From NCBI GenBank assembly GCA_958431155.1, contig OY288106.1, forward strand, positions 717,161 through 781,160: a DNA stretch of 64,000 bases, written 5' to 3'. Position numbers and translations under genes: made by a program. The notes below the pieces were generated by a model, which was not told where the DNA came from, searched no databases, and saw only the letters and a list, made by a program, of their open reading frames with translations. Positions within the stretch are counted from its first letter, which is position 1. The number at the start of each line of letters is the position of its first letter. This document shows positions 7,373 through 11,429 of the stretch, in pieces. The DNA comes from an uncultured candidatus Porisulfidus sp. (GTDB taxonomy: Bacteria > Pseudomonadota > Gammaproteobacteria > Poriferisulfidales > Poriferisulfidaceae).

Positions 7373-8431
7373 CTAATTCTGATAATAGTAATCGTAGCGC
7401 CTGAGTAAATCCAGCGAGAACCGCCAGCCTTCCTGGTAGGTCAGGTTGCTGTCCATCGGAATCACGATCCGGACGAACAGCTTGTCGCCGTGTTCCTGCT
7501 TGAGCCCCGACAGAACCCGGTGCATTTCCTCTTTCTCGACAGGCTCGAATTTCGCGGCGTCCGGAGGCTTGAGCATAAGGGACGGCTGCCCCTCCACCTT
7601 CCGGTAGCGAACGGCGGCCACCACCTTGCCCAAGGGGCTGCGGGCCGGCTTCGACAGAGCCGCGTACTTCTCGCCCATTTGCTCGTACTCCTTCTGCAGG
7701 AGTTCCAGCTCTTCGCGAGTCTGTCGCTGCTGCTTCTCGACCTCCACGTACATCTGCTCGCGCAGCACGCCTTCCTCCTGCATCTGCGCCAGCTGCTCCT
7801 GCACCTCAAGCAACTCCTGCCTCCGCTCCGCGCTGATGGTCTGGCTCTCCCGCATTTCGGCCTGCACCCGCGCATGCTCCTCCCGTATGTCCGCCAACTG
7901 AGCCTGCTGCTCGGCCAACGCGGTCTGCGCGCCAGCCAGATCCCTCTCCCTTGCCTCCAACTGCCCGATCTTGCCCTGCAGCGCCTCACGGGTCTTCTCC
8001 ATGCGGGTCCGCATTTCGGCCTGCGCCCGCGCATGCTCCTCCCGTACGTCCACCAACTGAGCCTGCTGCTCGGCCAACGCGGTCTGCGCGCCGGCCAGAT
8101 CCCTCTCCCTTGCCTCCAGCTGCCCGATCTTGCCCTGCAGCGCCTCACGGGTCTTCTCCATGCGGGTCCGCATTTCCCCCAACTCAAGCTGGAGCAGTAT
8201 CTGGCGCAGGTTCAGGTCTTCCGCCCGCTCCCTGGCCTGCTGTTCCAGCGCGGCCGTCTCCTGGACTTGTCTGGACAGGTCCCAGTTGTGCAGGACTGCC
8301 ACCGTGCCGGACAGCAAAAACACGATGACCACGACCATCATGATGTCGGTGAAGGACGGCCAGAAGTTTTCCTCGTTGATCGAGGACAAGGGGAAAGCGT
8401 AGTCGGGAAGCGAGGATTGACTGCCGATCAT
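7373..8431 (-). CDS. Stator B-like subunit: a TolR/ExbD/MotB-type TM helix with the conserved Asp, fused to a long coiled coil and a C-terminal domain of unknown type.
   Basis: N-terminal WPSFTDIMMVVVIVFLL resembles the MotB/TolR W..ADxM motif. About 200 aa is E/A/Q/R-rich heptad sequence with a tandem 53-aa repeat. No OmpA-like motif in the C-terminal ~90 aa. Confidence 0.55.
   Translation of the reverse strand: MIGSQSSLPDYAFPLSSINEENFWPSFTDIMMVVVIVFLLSGTVAVLHNWDLSRQVQETAALEQQARERAEDLNLRQILLQLELGEMRTRMEKTREALQGKIGQLEARERDLAGAQTALAEQQAQLVDVREEHARAQAEMRTRMEKTREALQGKIGQLEARERDLAGAQTALAEQQAQLADIREEHARVQAEMRESQTISAERRQELLEVQEQLAQMQEEGVLREQMYVEVEKQQRQTREELELLQKEYEQMGEKYAALSKPARSPLGKVVAAVRYRKVEGQPSLMLKPPDAAKFEPVEKEEMHRVLSGLKQEHGDKLFVRIVIPMDSNLTYQEGWRFSLDLLRRYDYYYQN
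7859..8176 (-). repeat. Two tandem direct copies of a 159-bp unit (about 96% identical), with a partial third copy downstream, inside the coiled-coil CDS.
   Basis: Copy A (7859-8017) and copy B (8018-8176) differ at about 6 positions. They encode EMRTRMEKTREALQGKIGQLEARERDLAGAQTALAEQQAQLVDVREEHARAQA twice. Confidence 0.9.
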
Positions 8432-8437
8432 GATTCC

Positions 8438-9346
8438 TTACTGATCCAGCCGGAACCCTTTCTTCAGGGTCTGGTTAACCTTTCGCAGCGCTTCCAGCAG
8501 CTGCTCGTCTTGTTCGTTCTGCACGTGCCTTTCATGCCGCGTGGCGTCAAGATGGGGGGTCAGGCTCGCGCCGTCTCGCGTGACCAGCGGCAGAACCCGC
8601 CGCAAAGTCAGCAGCTCGATCCGCTGGCACACACTGGACTGACCAGCCACCAGCCGGGAAAAGATGAGAGTCAGTACCAGATAGGCCGCGATGGCTGTCA
8701 TCGTGGTGGAGAGCGCTGTCGCCATCCCGTGGACCACCAAGGTGATGCCGCCTCCGTTCTGCGGGAAGGACAACAGGTCGGAAGCCCCGACTAGAGCCAG
8801 AGACAGCGATGCGACCGTACCGAACACGCCGAGCAGGATCAGCAGGCTCTGTATCAGGCGGATCAGGCCGAGGCGCGTCACCTCCTGGTTCATCAGGATG
8901 GCCGACAAGGCCGCCTGCTGAGGGCGATCCAGTTCCGACTGGCTTTGCTGAAAAACGCGGTAGCGCTGCACGATCAGGGAGTCGGACAGATCTTCGATAC
9001 CGGCTTCGGTCAGGCCGAAATTCATTTGTTCCTCGAACTGGTCGATGGAACGGTTTTCGCGGGTGTAGTCGAGCAGCAGGTAGAAAATCCGCCCCAGTGC
9101 CACCAGAAACAACGCGACGATGATACTGTTGACGACCATGCCGAGTTCTGTCGCCAGAGGCCCCCAGTAGATTTCTGCCAAGACCGCTCTTTGCCAGACC
9201 AGCAAGCTGGCGAACAGGAGCAATGCGACTCCCGCCTGTAGCATCATGAAGTGGGGACGGCTCGTAAAAATCTTATGAATCATAGCGTTAGCGATAAAAT
9301 ATTGCCCGTTTTCAATCTCTTGAATCGGGGAAGTATAGCAGAGCAA
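8438..9346 (-). CDS. MotA/TolQ/ExbB proton-channel family protein (4 TM)
   Basis: Topology is 2 TM, a cytoplasmic loop, then 2 TM. TM3/TM4 motifs LLGVFGTVASLSL and ATALSTTMTAIAAY match the MotA/ExbB family. Start is uncertain: TTG at 9346, alternative ATGs at 9283 and 9247. Confidence 0.7.
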   Translation of the reverse strand: MLCYTSPIQEIENGQYFIANAMIHKIFTSRPHFMMLQAGVALLLFASLLVWQRAVLAEIYWGPLATELGMVVNSIIVALFLVALGRIFYLLLDYTRENRSIDQFEEQMNFGLTEAGIEDLSDSLIVQRYRVFQQSQSELDRPQQAALSAILMNQEVTRLGLIRLIQSLLILLGVFGTVASLSLALVGASDLLSFPQNGGGITLVVHGMATALSTTMTAIAAYLVLTLIFSRLVAGQSSVCQRIELLTLRRVLPLVTRDGASLTPHLDATRHERHVQNEQDEQLLEALRKVNQTLKKGFRLDQ

Positions 9347-9366
9347 GGTGTTCTCTTGCCGGTTTG

Positions 9367-9669
9367 TGGTGCGGGCGGAGGGATTCGAACCCCCACGGGC
9401 AAAGCCCAGCGGATTTTCGCACCAGCTACGGCTTTCGCCGCCGCCGCTTGCGCGGCGTTTGTGGTCCGGACTATCCCTTCACCTTAGCCATCCGGCCTTA
9501 GGTGCTGCCCGTCTAGTCTCTACACCTTCCCGAAAGTTCCCTTCCGGGCTTGGCTCGGGATCGCCATTCCACAGGGTTCCCCGAATTTGAGCAGTTCTGC
9601 ATCTCCGGTTTCCCGAAGAGCACTCAATGGCCTCAAGTCCGCAGCGTCTACCGATTCCGCCACGCCCGC
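9367..9669 (-). tRNA. leuZ: tRNA-Leu(UAA) gene (leuZ-like) interrupted by a group I intron. Exons are 9635-9669 and 9367-9417.
   Basis: 5' exon GCGGGCGUGGCGGAAUCGGUAGACGCUGCGGACUU. 3' exon AAAAUCCGC, variable arm GGGCUUUGCCC, T-arm GGGGGUUCGAAUCCCUC and acceptor CGCCCGCACCA. Anticodon loop CUU|AAAA gives UAA. The exons total 86 nt and fold as a class II tRNA. Confidence 0.85.
9418..9634 (-). ncRNA. Group I intron (tRNA-Leu UAA type, IC3-like) inserted between U34 and A35. No ORF.
   Basis: Starts right after the exon U and ends in G. Internal GUGUAGAGACUAGACGG (R-like) and GAUAGUCC (S-like) elements, plus CCCGAGCCAAGCC, resemble cyanobacterial/plastid tRNA-Leu introns. Confidence 0.75.
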
Positions 9670-9705: not shown

Positions 9706-9779
9706 TGGAGGCTGAGGTCGGAATCGAACCGGCGTCCACGGCTTTGCAGGCCGCTGCATAACCACTCTGCCACTCAGCC
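9706..9779 (-). tRNA. cysT: tRNA-Cys(GCA)
   Basis: Acceptor GGCUGAG/CUCAGCC, anticodon loop CUGCAAA, discriminator U73 typical of tRNA-Cys, T-loop UUCGAUU, encoded CCA. Confidence 0.85.
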
Positions 9780-9818: not shown

Positions 9819-9894
9819 TGGAGCGGGAAACCGGGTTCGAACCGGCGACCTTAACCTTGGCAAGGTTACGCTCTACCAACTGAGCTATTCCCGC
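9819..9894 (-). tRNA. glyW: tRNA-Gly(GCC)
   Basis: GCGGGAAUAGCUCAGUUGGUAGAGCG with anticodon loop UUGCCAA. Nearly identical to E. coli tRNA-Gly3. Confidence 0.9.
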
Positions 9895-9908: not shown

Positions 9909-9937
9909 ATTGTCGCACCCCCATCCGGGGCTGTCAA
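9909..9937 (-). promoter_or_regulatory. Putative sigma70 promoter of the tRNA Gly-Cys-Leu operon
   Basis: Perfect -35 TTGACA (9932-9937, minus), 17-nt spacer, -10 GACAAT (9909-9914). A/T-rich UP-like sequence lies upstream. Confidence 0.4.
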
Positions 9938-10018
9938 ATGAAGGGCCGGAATTTCTATATTTTTCAGGATGGCTGATGCCGCGCCCGCTTCACATCGCGA
10001 GCGCGGCACACCTGTCTC

Positions 10019-11170
10019 TTACTTCATGGTCCCGATGAAACTCCCTACCCAAGCCCCACTTTCACCGTTAGCAAACTCGTACTCTCCTCCGCCTGTCCCC
10101 ATGACAGCCCTGGGGTTAAAGTTTTCATCAAGCATGTTGGAAAAGGTTCCTCCGAGGCTTCCTTGGTTGAAAACCACCGGCGACCTTTGACTGCCTGTTT
10201 TTCTGGTCAGACTTGTGCTTTGGGTCTCAAACGTTCCATTCGATTGAACCACAGCCGTCGCCCGATAAATTAATTCATTCGGCACTGCCGTAAAGCGAGA
10301 GGTTGCCCCGTCAGCCGAAACATAGTGCCCGTAAAGTAGCGTATCCTCATCGCAGCCAGTGCAATAGTCCAGTGCTCCGGTGGCAAAATCTATATTCAGA
10401 GTCATATCGCCAATGTACTGACCGATCTCTCTCGAACTGTCCACATAGTCGTGATAGTACACGCCTTGTGCGCCTCCCGTGTACGTGGCCGATCCCGTAT
10501 CCGGCAAGGTTGGAGGAGAAGCCGAGTCAATTTCCGGACTGTCGATATATGCGCCAAGCTCAACTGCAGCTTGGGCCAGGTAAGGATTGCCCTCTGACCG
10601 AATCCAGTACCCTCCAACATACCAATTCCCGGAATTTCCCCAGCCCCTTTCGATGTACGAGGCGAAGAACAGACTCTCGGAGTCTTCATGGACATGATAC
10701 GAGTACTGGACATCTGTTTGGCCGGGAGGCACAAACTGCCTATTTGGGTTAATCACTCCAGAGAGCCAAGCGTCATCAGAAGAATCAAAAATAAAAGTCG
10801 AGCCATCCTCTCGAGTCACGGTAATTTCGGCCGTGATTCCATCAAAAGTGGCAGAAGCCTGATCGGTTGTCCTCCCATTGGCATCGACATTCGAAGACTG
10901 GGTCACACTGCCATATTTTGGAAGAGCAGTCGCCGCCGTTTTGAAACTCTGAGCCTGGGCATCATCGGTGGAAGTTGTGTTTTCCACCGGATCAGATGTA
11001 GAGGTCATGTCAGTTGTGTCGGTTGCGCCGACGCTCCCGCCACCGCCACCACCGCCGCCGCAGGCGGCCAGCGTCAGTGAAGCAAAAGCCAGAAAAGCAA
11101 GTAGTGCGTAGTGGAATTTTCCCTCTCTTCTTAAGTTGGAATCAGGGAAAGCAAGGGCTATGAATTGCAT
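10019..11170 (-). CDS. Lipoprotein with a poly-Gly linker and a possible TbpB-like C-terminal barrel/handle domain. About 50% GC against about 63% background.
   Basis: Signal peptide plus lipobox LTLAAC followed by GGGGGGGG and an S/T/D-rich linker. C-terminus AVMGTGGGEYEFANGESGAWVGSFIGTMK. SD AGGA lies 8 nt upstream of the ATG at 11170. Confidence 0.6.
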   Translation of the reverse strand: MQFIALAFPDSNLRREGKFHYALLAFLAFASLTLAACGGGGGGGGSVGATDTTDMTSTSDPVENTTSTDDAQAQSFKTAATALPKYGSVTQSSNVDANGRTTDQASATFDGITAEITVTREDGSTFIFDSSDDAWLSGVINPNRQFVPPGQTDVQYSYHVHEDSESLFFASYIERGWGNSGNWYVGGYWIRSEGNPYLAQAAVELGAYIDSPEIDSASPPTLPDTGSATYTGGAQGVYYHDYVDSSREIGQYIGDMTLNIDFATGALDYCTGCDEDTLLYGHYVSADGATSRFTAVPNELIYRATAVVQSNGTFETQSTSLTRKTGSQRSPVVFNQGSLGGTFSNMLDENFNPRAVMGTGGGEYEFANGESGAWVGSFIGTMK

Positions 11171-11429
11171 GGTTGTCCTAATATCTGGTTGGTGAAAGCG
11201 ATTTCCCTCCGGGGAGTATCGAGTAGCATTATAGAGGCACTTTATGACGATGCGATTGAGCAACCTGCCGAGGGAAGCGATGCAGGGGGCCCCAAATTCA
11301 ATTGCAAGAACGGAGAATCCTTGCGCCCATTTCAATCGACGATTTTCTTTTCTGTTAAAATTGATTACTTAGCCTCTTTCCGGCGGCGATTTCGCATCAT
11401 GCCGGGCAAGGTTGCCTGAATCAATAGAG

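What the first reader, a model, noticed from the sequence alone, without database searches (positions are those of the whole stretch)
9367..9669. tRNA-Leu(UAA) (leuZ-like) is split by a 217-nt group I intron at the U34/A35 position
The 303-nt locus gives a perfect 86-nt class II tRNA-Leu only if 217 nt between the anticodon U34 and A35 are removed. The two exons are GCGGGCG...GCGGACUU and AAAAUCCGC...CGCCCGCACCA.

The intervening sequence begins right after an exon U and ends in G. It carries R-like (GUGUAGAGACUAGACGG) and S-like (GAUAGUCC) core elements and a CCCGAGCCAAGCC stretch, all close to the cyanobacterial/plastid tRNA-Leu(UAA) intron. It has no ORF.

This insertion site and intron family are classic for cyanobacteria and chloroplasts. 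Here the intron sits in the conserved gammaproteobacterial glyW-cysT-leuZ operon of a high-GC proteobacterium, where it is not expected. The mature tRNA therefore depends on self-splicing. Downstream envelope genes begin 21 nt after the tRNA 3' end and could also be affected.
Basis: partly seen in the sequence, partly recalled or inferred. Interest (0 to 1): 0.8.

Follow-up and report, generated by a model that had tools for sequence, protein, structure and literature searches.

The report
Self-splicing intron inside a leucine tRNA gene
A leucine tRNA gene in this uncultured gammaproteobacterium really is interrupted by a small self-splicing (group I) RNA intron, but the same intron at the same site is already catalogued and turns up in many non-cyanobacterial bacteria, so it is a genuine but ordinary example.

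Summary
On the minus strand, 9669-9635 (35 nt) plus 9417-9367 (51 nt) make an 86-nt class II tRNA-Leu(UAA). They are separated by a 217-nt intron (9634-9418) between U34 and A35.

The intron is a group I (IC3-type) ribozyme:
- It matches the whole Rfam Intron_gpI model at 48.5 bits, E=2e-11. This is 1.5 bits under the gathering score, so default annotation misses the gene.
- P1-P9 can all be drawn, with a U·G wobble at the 5' splice site and a terminal G.
- Across 84 homologous tRNA-Leu(UAA) introns the fold holds in 93.9% of cells, and 33 pairs show compensatory changes.

The claim that the intron is "not expected" here fails. The Leu 34/35 intron is one of four classical bacterial tRNA intron types and is reported in Pseudomonadota. 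My capped genome scan found it at the same site in 77 species genomes, mostly Acidobacteriota and Alphaproteobacteria. One is a Halioglobus MAG with the same Gly-Cys-Leu operon. Six diverged relatives of this organism all keep it.

The downstream gene starts 83 nt after the tRNA, not 21 nt.

Verdict: real, probably functional, and a new member of a known kind. Interest is low.

Side note: an unannotated homologue sits in 1,280 resistance plasmids.

The parts
9635..9669 (-). tRNA-Leu(UAA) 5' exon, 35 nt: acceptor 5' strand, D arm, anticodon stem 5' strand, then C32 U33 U34. U34 (9635) is the nucleotide before the 5' splice site.
   Evidence: ARAGORN in intron mode. The sequence was read directly.
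9418..9634 (-). Group I intron, IC3-type, 217 nt, with no ORF of its own. The terminal G (omega-G) is at 9418.
   Evidence: Rfam RF00028 gives 48.5 bits, E=2e-11, over model positions 1-253. A leave-out nhmmer profile gives E=2e-65. The hand-drawn P1-P9 structure has 68 of 68 standard pairs. Covariation across 84 homologues supports it. Folding z-score is -3.89.
9367..9417 (-). tRNA-Leu(UAA) 3' exon, 51 nt: A35 A36 A37 A38, anticodon stem 3' strand, long variable arm, T arm, acceptor 3' strand, A73 and an encoded CCA.
   Evidence: ARAGORN on the sequence spliced in silico gives an 86-nt tRNA-Leu(taa) cloverleaf.
9620..9640 (-). P1. Exon bases GGACUU plus intron GA (9640-9633) pair with the internal guide UUGAGUGC (9627-9620). 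The U34(9635)·G(9625) wobble marks the 5' splice site.
   Evidence: Pair list. The U·G wobble is present in 84 of 84 homologues (columns 10/25).
9602..9619 (-). P2 hairpin, 7 bp, capped by a GAAA tetraloop.
   Evidence: All 7 pairs show changes on both sides among homologues (helix 2). The MFE fold also contains this hairpin.
9589..9594 (-). P3 5' strand, CUGCUC. It pairs with 9510-9505.
   Evidence: helix 3: 100% paired. A U-A to C-G swap is seen in relative L130.
9555..9584 (-). P4 (9584-9579 with 9560-9555) enclosing the short P5 hairpin (9575-9564).
   Evidence: P4 is 100% paired and nearly invariant. One P5 pair switches C-G to G-C in 9 sequences.
9524..9554 (-). P6 (GCC/GGU) and P6a (8 bp with a GGAA loop).
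   Evidence: helices 6 and 7; 7 of the 8 P6a pairs show changes on both sides.
9514..9520 (-). P7 5' strand, G-A(bulge)-GACUA, within the 'R' element GUGUAGAGACUAGACGG. It pairs with 9473-9468 (UAGUCC, the 'S' element) to form the pseudoknotted core helix that carries the guanosine-binding site in known group I introns.
   Evidence: P7 is invariant in alignment A1, but that follows from the search pattern used and is not independent evidence. The plasmid homologue shows a compensatory GACUG/CAGUC change.
9505..9510 (-). P3 3' strand, GGGCAG.
9480..9504 (-). P8 hairpin. It contains CCUAAG...CUAAGG, a variant of the 11-nt GAAA-tetraloop receptor found in P8 of the Azoarcus intron.
   Evidence: Pairs (helices 9 and 10). 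The receptor reading comes from inspection against the Azoarcus seed sequence and general knowledge; it was not tested.
9468..9473 (-). P7 3' strand, UAGUCC.
9421..9465 (-). P9 (ACCA/UGGU) enclosing two hairpins: P9a (6 bp, GCAA loop) and P9b (5 bp, GAAA loop). GCG follows, ending in omega-G.
   Evidence: helices 11-13, with compensatory changes in each. The MFE fold contains both hairpins.
9706..9779 (-). tRNA-Cys(GCA), the second gene of the cluster.
   Evidence: ARAGORN and Rfam tRNA model, 60.7 bits.
9819..9894 (-). tRNA-Gly(GCC), the first gene of the cluster.
   Evidence: ARAGORN and Rfam tRNA model, 71.4 bits.
9909..9937 (-). Sigma-70-like promoter candidate (TTGACA, 17-nt spacer, TG-GACAAT), ending 15 nt upstream of tRNA-Gly.
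   Evidence: Consensus scan: 10 of 12 matches, 1 site found against 0.4 expected. This is only a consensus match.
8438..9283 (-). Downstream MotA/ExbB-family gene, 281 aa. Its conserved start is the ATG at 9283, 83 nt after the tRNA 3' end. It is a neighbour and not part of the intron.
   Evidence: Pfam PF01618. N-terminal alignment with five homologues.

Best explanation
This is the organism's leuZ-type tRNA-Leu(UAA) gene, carrying a compact, ORF-less group I intron of the IC3 bacterial tRNA type between anticodon nucleotides U34 and A35.

Proposed mechanism:
- The Gly-Cys-Leu cluster is transcribed from a promoter upstream of tRNA-Gly.
- In the precursor, the end of the 5' exon (GGACUU) pairs with the intron's internal guide (GAGU) to form P1. 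U34 sits in a U·G wobble there.
- The folded core (P3-P8, with the P7 pseudoknot) binds free guanosine, which attacks after U34.
- The intron's own terminal G (9418) then takes the same site, and the freed exon 3'-OH attacks after it.
- This joins ...CUU to AAAA... and restores the UAA anticodon loop of an 86-nt tRNA with an encoded CCA.

Shown here:
- the exon and intron boundaries;
- the full set of conserved helices and their covariation;
- homology to known self-splicing tRNA introns;
- stable retention in the lineage.

Inferred, not shown:
- that the intron actually splices;
- that it does so without protein help;
- that this is the cell's only tRNA able to read UUA.

The intron most likely persists as a nearly neutral passenger. 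Lacking a homing endonuclease, it is inherited vertically in this lineage.
For: - ARAGORN in intron mode gives a complete tRNA-Leu(UAA) cloverleaf with a 217-nt intron at 34/35.
- Rfam RF00028 matches the whole model at 48.5 bits, E=2e-11.
- All 68 pairs of the hand-drawn P1-P9 structure are standard pairs in this sequence.
- On 84 distinct tRNA-Leu(UAA) introns, the structure is 93.9% paired against 29-45% when partners are slid. Thirty-three pairs change on both sides. None of 500 shuffles reaches the observed values. The U·G wobble is present in 84 of 84.
- The leave-out profile gives E=2e-65.
- The intron is 85% identical to Ncf2.Leu.3Ug, 72% to the Synechococcus elongatus tRNA-Leu intron, and 77% (over aligned positions) to the Azoarcus tRNA-Ile intron, all from the Williams seed alignment.
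- Eight conspecific metagenome contigs carry the locus at 98.4-99.3% identity. Most of their substitutions fall in unpaired sites or make a wobble pair.
- Six relatives, whose neighbouring MotA-like protein is only 58-78% identical, all keep Gly-Cys-Leu with a 216-218-nt intron. They show compensatory changes in P3 and in the anticodon stem.
- Splicing of the homologous Nostoc PCC 7120 tRNA-Leu intron is used as an experimental positive control in PMC13011429.
Against: - No experiment or transcript data exist for this locus, so splicing is an inference.
- The Rfam score is 1.5 bits below the curated gathering score.
- P7 invariance in my alignment is forced by the search pattern, so it says nothing about that helix.
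- The structure was derived from this sequence, which inflates the 'percent paired' comparison with the slid controls. The counts of compensatory changes are not affected.
- I could not scan the rest of the genome for a second, uninterrupted tRNA-Leu(UAA).
Confidence: 0.92

Rival explanations
1. The locus is a disrupted tRNA pseudogene. The intron is a catalytically dead relic, and UUA codons are read by another gene copy or are avoided.
For: No splicing data exist. The Rfam score is just under the gathering score. The genome beyond this 64-kb window was not searched for another tRNA-Leu(UAA).
Against: - All core helices are intact and the exons form a perfect cloverleaf.
- The locus is kept, with compensatory changes, in six relatives that have diverged to 58-78% identity in the neighbouring protein.
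- Variation among conspecific contigs mostly spares paired positions.
- A dead intron in a dispensable gene would be expected to decay.
Confidence: 0.04
2. The intron is a recent horizontal arrival in this gammaproteobacterium. This is the 'unexpected' scenario that the first reader implied.
For: - The closest introns in my sample come from different phyla at similar distances: Acidobacteriaceae L029 at 85.8%, Halioglobus L034 at 84.5%, Sphingomonas L104 at 83.6%.
- The spliced tRNA is 88-92% identical to intron-bearing tRNA-Leu genes of Alphaproteobacteria, but only 72% identical to E. coli leuZ.
- A whole intron-bearing tRNA-Leu gene clearly has moved on plasmids.
Against: - The intron is present at the same site, with nearly the same length, in every relative examined down to 58% identity of the neighbouring protein. 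Any acquisition therefore predates this whole group.
- There is no homing endonuclease gene.
- A mostly conserved core of about 217 nt carries too little signal to tell transfer from constraint.
Confidence: 0.15
3. The intron splices but needs a protein cofactor, or acts as a regulated checkpoint on UUA decoding and on read-through into the downstream MotA/ExbB-ABC gene block.
For: The tRNA cluster lies 83 nt upstream of, and on the same strand as, the MotA-like gene. The consensus scan found no terminator-like site between them on that strand.
Against: - Nothing in the sequence distinguishes this intron from the self-sufficient Azoarcus and Anabaena type.
- The same intron sits in many unrelated genomic contexts.
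- In relatives L135 and L130, other DNA separates the tRNAs or the downstream gene.
Confidence: 0.05

Closest known systems
[quoted passage not shown] The nearest seed member is Ncf2.Leu.3Ug.
   Same: Same host gene, same insertion point (CUU|AAAA), U at -1 and a terminal G. The helix set is the same. Sequence identity is 85%. Both are high-GC with a GAAA-capped P2 and a P9 that bears two hairpins.
   Different: P6a, the end of P8 and P9a differ in sequence. I could not determine which organism the code 'Ncf2' refers to.
Cyanobacterial and plastid tRNA-Leu(UAA) intron (Anabaena/Nostoc PCC 7120, Synechococcus elongatus). Its self-splicing is established (Zaug et al. 1993, as cited in PMC13011429).
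   Same: Same gene and site, same IC-type core, no ORF. Identity to the S. elongatus seed sequence is 72%.
   Different: The host is a gammaproteobacterial MAG lineage. The P3 and peripheral helices differ in sequence: the cyanobacterial seed reads GCAGAGACUAGACGGGAGC where this intron reads GUAGAGACUAGACGGGCAGC. The context also differs; here the gene is the third in a Gly-Cys-Leu cluster.
Azoarcus tRNA-Ile(CAU) intron, the structural model for IC3 ribozymes (Aol6.Ile2.5Ug in the Williams seed).
   Same: The R and S elements, P4-P6 (CCGAGCCAAG) and the receptor motif in P8 are nearly identical. L2 is a GAAA loop. Identity over aligned positions is 77%.
   Different: The host tRNA and the insertion position differ (Ile2, after position 36 of the anticodon loop). 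Azoarcus has a longer P5/P5a and a simple P9; this intron has a minimal P5 and a branched P9.
E. coli glyW-cysT-leuZ operon
   Same: Same gene order and anticodons, Gly(GCC)-Cys(GCA)-Leu(UAA), all on one strand.
   Different: E. coli leuZ is an uninterrupted 87-nt gene and is only 72% identical to this spliced tRNA. The flanking genes also differ: pgsA and yecA in E. coli, against isocitrate lyase and a MotA-like gene here.
tRNA-Leu(UAA) intron of a gamma-proteobacterium from a deep subsurface site (Vepritskiy et al., J Bacteriol 2002). I recall this from memory. The paper is not in the held library and was not verified.
   Same: As I recall it, a group I intron in tRNA-Leu(UAA) of a gammaproteobacterium. 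That would be direct precedent for the host class.
   Different: I could not compare sequences.

Membership tests
Group I intron (Rfam RF00028 Intron_gpI) | Significant match to the covariance model over its full length | tested here: met
   The match scores 48.5 bits, E=2e-11, over model positions 1-253 with no truncation. This is 1.5 bits below Rfam's curated gathering score of 50, so the default scan does not report it. Williams 2020 accepted hits from 18-20 bits when the hit lay inside a split tRNA call.
Group I intron (Rfam RF00028 Intron_gpI) | Conserved core helices P3-P8, including the P3/P7 pseudoknot | tested here: met
   All pairs are standard in this sequence. Across 84 homologues P3, P4, P5 and P6 are 100% paired. 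Compensatory changes occur in P2, P3, P5, P6a, P8 and P9. P7 is uninformative in A1 because the search pattern fixed it. It does covary in the plasmid homologue.
Group I intron (Rfam RF00028 Intron_gpI) | U at -1 forming a U·G wobble in P1 at the 5' splice site | tested here: met
   U34 (9635) pairs with G (9625). The U·G wobble is present in 84 of 84 aligned homologues.
Group I intron (Rfam RF00028 Intron_gpI) | Guanosine as the last intron nucleotide (omega-G) | tested here: met
   G at 9418. This column is invariant in A1 (G227).
Group I intron (Rfam RF00028 Intron_gpI) | Guanosine-dependent self-splicing | not testable with these tools
   This needs in-vitro transcription and a GTP chase, or RNA data from the source community.
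Bacterial tRNA intron class Leu.3Ug / subgroup IC3 | Insertion between nucleotides 34 and 35 of tRNA-Leu(UAA) | tested here: met
   ARAGORN reports 'gactt-Intron-aaaat'. Seventy-seven genomes from the scan and six relatives have the same junction.
Bacterial tRNA intron class Leu.3Ug / subgroup IC3 | Sequence homology to established members | tested here: met
   Identity is 85% to Ncf2.Leu.3Ug, 72% to Sel1.Leu.3Ug and 77% to the Azoarcus intron over aligned positions. The leave-out profile gives E=2e-65. The IC3 label itself comes from Williams 2020, who cites the group I intron database. I did not run a subgroup classifier.
Bacterial tRNA intron class Leu.3Ug / subgroup IC3 | Small size, with no homing endonuclease ORF | tested here: met
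   The intron is 217 nt. The only ORFs overlapping it are mechanical ones that run into the flanking tRNA sequence.
tRNA-Leu (class II tRNA) | Cloverleaf with a long variable arm, UAA anticodon and A73 | tested here: met
   ARAGORN on the spliced sequence gives an 86-nt tRNA-Leu(taa) with a variable stem-loop, a discriminator A and an encoded CCA.
tRNA-Leu (class II tRNA) | Aminoacylation and use in translation | not testable with these tools
   No expression or charging data are available.

The most novel reading that the evidence does not exclude
The intron-bearing tRNA-Leu(UAA) gene may be the only decoder of UUA in a small-genome, uncultured gammaproteobacterial lineage. Contigs of 1.6-2.0 Mb carry the neighbouring gene. 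The lineage may be sponge-associated, but that rests only on a sample name. On this reading the intron has been fixed for a long time, so translation of UUA codons, and perhaps transcription into the downstream MotA/ExbB-ABC block, depends on ribozyme activity. The near-identical intron cores in Acidobacteriota, Alphaproteobacteria and Gammaproteobacteria would then reflect repeated transfer of the whole split gene, as seen on the resistance plasmids, and not ancient vertical descent.
Probability: 0.12. Interest if true: 0.4.

Novelty: new member of a known kind. Interest (0 to 1): 0.2.

Why it matters
The main value is for annotation. Default tRNA finders and Rfam at its gathering threshold both miss this gene. 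Genomes of this lineage would therefore appear to lack any tRNA for UUA, which can distort completeness and codon-usage inferences.

The finding adds one more lineage, and a conserved one, to the known spread of the classical tRNA-Leu intron outside cyanobacteria. It does not change how these introns are understood.

The side observation may be of more practical interest. An unannotated homologue travels with the aac(3)-IId resistance module in more than a thousand enterobacterial plasmids.

Tried and rejected
- Default ARAGORN and the Rfam gathering-threshold scan of the whole window reported only Cys, Gly and Ser tRNAs and no intron. The locus appears only with intron mode or E-value thresholds.
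- I looked for other copies of the intron, or other split tRNAs, in the 64 kb. There are none.
- I searched the literature for the gamma-proteobacterial tRNA-Leu intron paper I recall (Vepritskiy 2002). It is not held, so it stays unverified. Two papers that matched 'gamma-proteobacterium' were irrelevant.
- I tried to name the organism. A search for GCA_002631715 / MRSX01 in papers found nothing. Cluster names say only 'MAG: Gammaproteobacteria bacterium'.
It did not return this organism's own species representative, and it says nothing about frequency.
- ARAGORN run on whole 8-kb loci on both strands often mis-places the intron by 1-3 nt and then mis-names the tRNA as Ser(aga), Phe(aaa) and so on. 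I relied instead on the single-strand calls that show the exact GACTT|...G|AAAAT junction. Two Chloroflexota loci (L028, L102) with a different called junction were left out.
- I did not build a covariance model. The alignment has about 240 model positions, which I judged likely to exceed the calibration time limit, and the P7 pseudoknot cannot be encoded. I used a leave-out nhmmer profile and explicit pair counting instead.
- I considered chance resemblance and 'two separate tRNA halves'. Both are rejected on the E-values and on the continuous, fully structured intron.

Full report
**Observation**

- The 5' exon (9669-9635, 35 nt) is GCGGGCGUGGCGGAAUCGGUAGACGCUGCGGACUU.
- The intervening sequence (9634-9418) is 217 nt.
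- The 3' exon (9417-9367, 51 nt) runs AAAAUCCGC...CGCCCGCACCA.

Default ARAGORN and Rfam at gathering threshold report only tRNA-Cys (9706-9779), tRNA-Gly(GCC) (9819-9894) and a tRNA-Ser elsewhere. The sequence spliced in silico folds as a class II cloverleaf with A73 and an encoded CCA.

**What the intervening sequence is**

With an E-value threshold, Rfam Intron_gpI (RF00028) matches 9644-9441 over the whole model (positions 1-253) at 48.5 bits, E=2e-11. The gathering score is 50, which is why the default scan is silent.

I drew P1-P9 by hand, using the Rfam alignment and the seed alignment of Williams 2020 as guides. All 68 proposed pairs are standard pairs in this sequence.
- P1 pairs exon GGACUU plus the first intron bases with the guide UUGAGUGC. 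This puts U34 in a U·G wobble.
- P2 is 7 bp with a GAAA loop.
- P3 is CUGCUC/GGGCAG.
- P4 is UCGGGG/UCCCGA.
- P5 is minimal.
- P6 is followed by P6a, which has a GGAA loop.
- P8 carries a CCUAAG...CUAAGG receptor-like motif.
- P9 is branched, with a GCAA-capped and a GAAA-capped hairpin.
- The last intron base is G (9418).

The thermodynamic fold recovers the P2, P6a, P8, P9a and P9b hairpins. Its z-score against shuffles is -3.89.

**Comparative support**

I scanned one genome per species with a pattern made from the R and S elements. ARAGORN in intron mode showed that most hits are tRNA-Leu(UAA) genes split at the same place. After de-duplication, 77 scan loci plus 6 relatives show the exact GACTT|...G|AAAAT junction.

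I aligned these 83 sequences with the window sequence to make alignment A1 and counted my structure on it.
- 93.9% of cells form standard pairs, against 29-45% when partners are slid by 1-3 columns.
- 33 pairs have changes on both sides.
- None of 500 shuffles reaches the observed values.
- The U·G wobble at the splice site is present in 84 of 84 sequences.

There are two caveats. P7 is invariant because the search pattern fixed it. The structure came from this sequence, which favours the 'percent paired' figure but not the compensatory counts.

A sequence profile built from the 77 unrelated introns alone hits 9642-9409 at E=2e-65 and nothing else in the window.

**Host and inheritance**

Proteins of the window belong to clusters that NCBI names only 'MAG: Gammaproteobacteria bacterium'.

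Eight metagenome contigs encode an identical isocitrate dehydrogenase. They carry the split gene at 98.4-99.3% identity. Their substitutions fall mostly in unpaired positions or make a wobble pair.

I used homologues of the MotA/ExbB-like gene just downstream to fetch six more distant relatives, at 58-78% protein identity. All have Gly(GCC)-Cys(GCA)-Leu(UAA) with a 216-218-nt intron. They show compensatory changes in P3 (L130) and in the anticodon stem (L136). Two still more distant homologues (48-56%) have no tRNAs at that position, so they are uninformative.

The intron is therefore old and stably inherited in this group. It encodes no endonuclease.

**How it most likely works**

The cluster has a good sigma-70-like site 15 nt upstream of tRNA-Gly. 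E. coli has the same gene order and anticodons in glyW-cysT-leuZ, with an uninterrupted leuZ.

The precursor would fold P1 around U34, bind guanosine in the P7 core, cleave after U34, and then use the terminal G to ligate the exons. This rebuilds the CUUAAAA anticodon loop. The mechanism is inferred from homology. The Nostoc PCC 7120 tRNA-Leu intron serves as a splicing-positive control in PMC13011429. Nothing here shows splicing directly. I also could not check whether this is the only tRNA able to read UUA.

**Comparison with what is known**

Williams 2020 mapped 5,292 group I-split tRNA genes in about 80,000 genomes. That paper calls Leu.3Ug one of four classical types, all IC3. Its seed alignment contains Ncf2.Leu.3Ug, which is 85% identical to this intron.

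Other identities are 72% to the Synechococcus elongatus tRNA-Leu intron, 77% (over aligned positions) to the Azoarcus tRNA-Ile intron and 82% to an alphaproteobacterial-type tRNA-Arg intron.

PMC13011429 states that introns of Pseudomonadota and Cyanobacteriota lie mainly at 33/34, 34/35 and 36/37.

In my scan the record titles name Acidobacteriota, many Alphaproteobacteria, Binatia and others. They also name a gammaproteobacterial Halioglobus MAG, in which the intron (212 nt, 84.5% identical) sits in the same Gly-Cys-Leu cluster.

I also recall a 2002 J Bacteriol paper describing this intron in a gamma-proteobacterium, but I could not retrieve it.

**Corrections to details**

The downstream gene does not begin 21 nt after the tRNA. 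The TTG at 9346 is the mechanical ORF start, and some gene callers do use it. Five homologues align from the MI.KIF motif, which puts the start at the ATG at 9283, 83 nt downstream.

The downstream genes are a MotA/ExbB-family protein, a coiled-coil protein and an ABC transporter. Whether the tRNA transcript reads into them is unknown.

**Verdict**

The finding is real, and its structural interpretation is correct. The intron is very probably functional. It is a new member of a well-known class and not a surprise. I score interest at 0.2.

**Noticed on the way**

A search of complete E. coli genomes with the tRNA cluster gave its best hits on plasmids, not at chromosomal leuZ. In NZ_CP100963.1, an unannotated stretch next to the AAA-ATPase/aac(3)-IId module, flanked by IS26, encodes a complete tRNA-Leu(UAA). 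It is split at the same site by a 211-nt group I intron. Rfam gives 39.6 bits, E=1.7e-8, and the core helices are intact with compensatory changes.

The same 310 bp occurs at 99% identity or more in 1,280 of 72,556 PLSDB plasmids, from Escherichia, Klebsiella, Salmonella, Acinetobacter and others. It also occurs in 636 of 5,426 complete E. coli genomes. No feature is annotated under any match listed. Two literature searches linking tmrB or resistance plasmids with group I introns found nothing.

Noticed in passing
L138 4001-4297 (NZ_CP100963.1 256194-256490), an E. coli plasmid: An unannotated, intact-looking tRNA-Leu(UAA) gene is split at the same U34/A35 site by a 211-nt group I intron (Rfam 39.6 bits, E=1.7e-8). 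It lies beside the AAA-ATPase/aac(3)-IId resistance module between IS26 copies. The same 310 bp is found at 99% identity or more in 1,280 of 72,556 PLSDB plasmids (Escherichia, Klebsiella, Salmonella, Acinetobacter and others) and in 636 of 5,426 complete E. coli genomes. No feature is annotated under any match listed. Two literature searches found no mention. The donor organism is unknown. The nearest sampled introns are alphaproteobacterial, at about 81% identity.
   Followed up: partly
window 9946-11338: A segment of about 1.39 kb lies immediately upstream of the tRNA-cluster promoter. It holds one ORF (10019-11335, minus strand) with a lipoprotein-like N-terminus and a poly-Gly run, and no Pfam hit. 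Its GC content (about 0.48-0.55) is lower than its surroundings. It is absent from conspecific contigs L001, L002 and L005, where about 44 nt take its place, and present at about 88% identity in L003.
   Followed up: partly
window 7850-8176 (inside ORF 7373-8431, minus strand): A 159-bp tandem duplication (2.1 copies, 97% match) repeats a 53-aa coiled-coil segment of the 352-aa protein downstream of the MotA-like gene. One conspecific contig (L005) encodes a 262-aa version, and relatives encode 297-306 aa.
   Followed up: no
window 8438-9283 (minus strand): Compared with all five aligned homologues, the MotA/ExbB-like protein lacks a stretch of 21-25 aa near its C-terminus.
   Followed up: no
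L130 2166-2606; L135 1305-3001; L002 about 7801-7902: In relatives the cluster is interrupted in different ways. L130 has 440 nt between tRNA-Cys and the split tRNA-Leu. L135 has a 521-aa AAA-ATPase_like/PDDEXK_9 gene between tRNA-Leu and the MotA-like gene. Conspecific L002 has about 100 extra nt between the tRNA 3' end and the MotA-like gene.
   Followed up: no
L009-L127 (genome-contig scan): The same R...S intron core also interrupts other tRNA genes in the sampled genomes: Arg(CCU) in Methylobacterium and relatives, Arg(UCU), Lys(CUU), Thr(GGT), Leu(CAA), Ser(UGA) and others. ARAGORN frequently mis-places the splice site by 1-3 nt when run on whole loci.
   Followed up: no
window 9284-9366 (minus strand); compare L139 749-815: In E. 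coli K-12 the 3' trailer of leuZ is annotated as the small regulatory RNA 3'ETS-leuZ. The 83-nt spacer after the split tRNA-Leu here was not examined for anything comparable.
   Followed up: no
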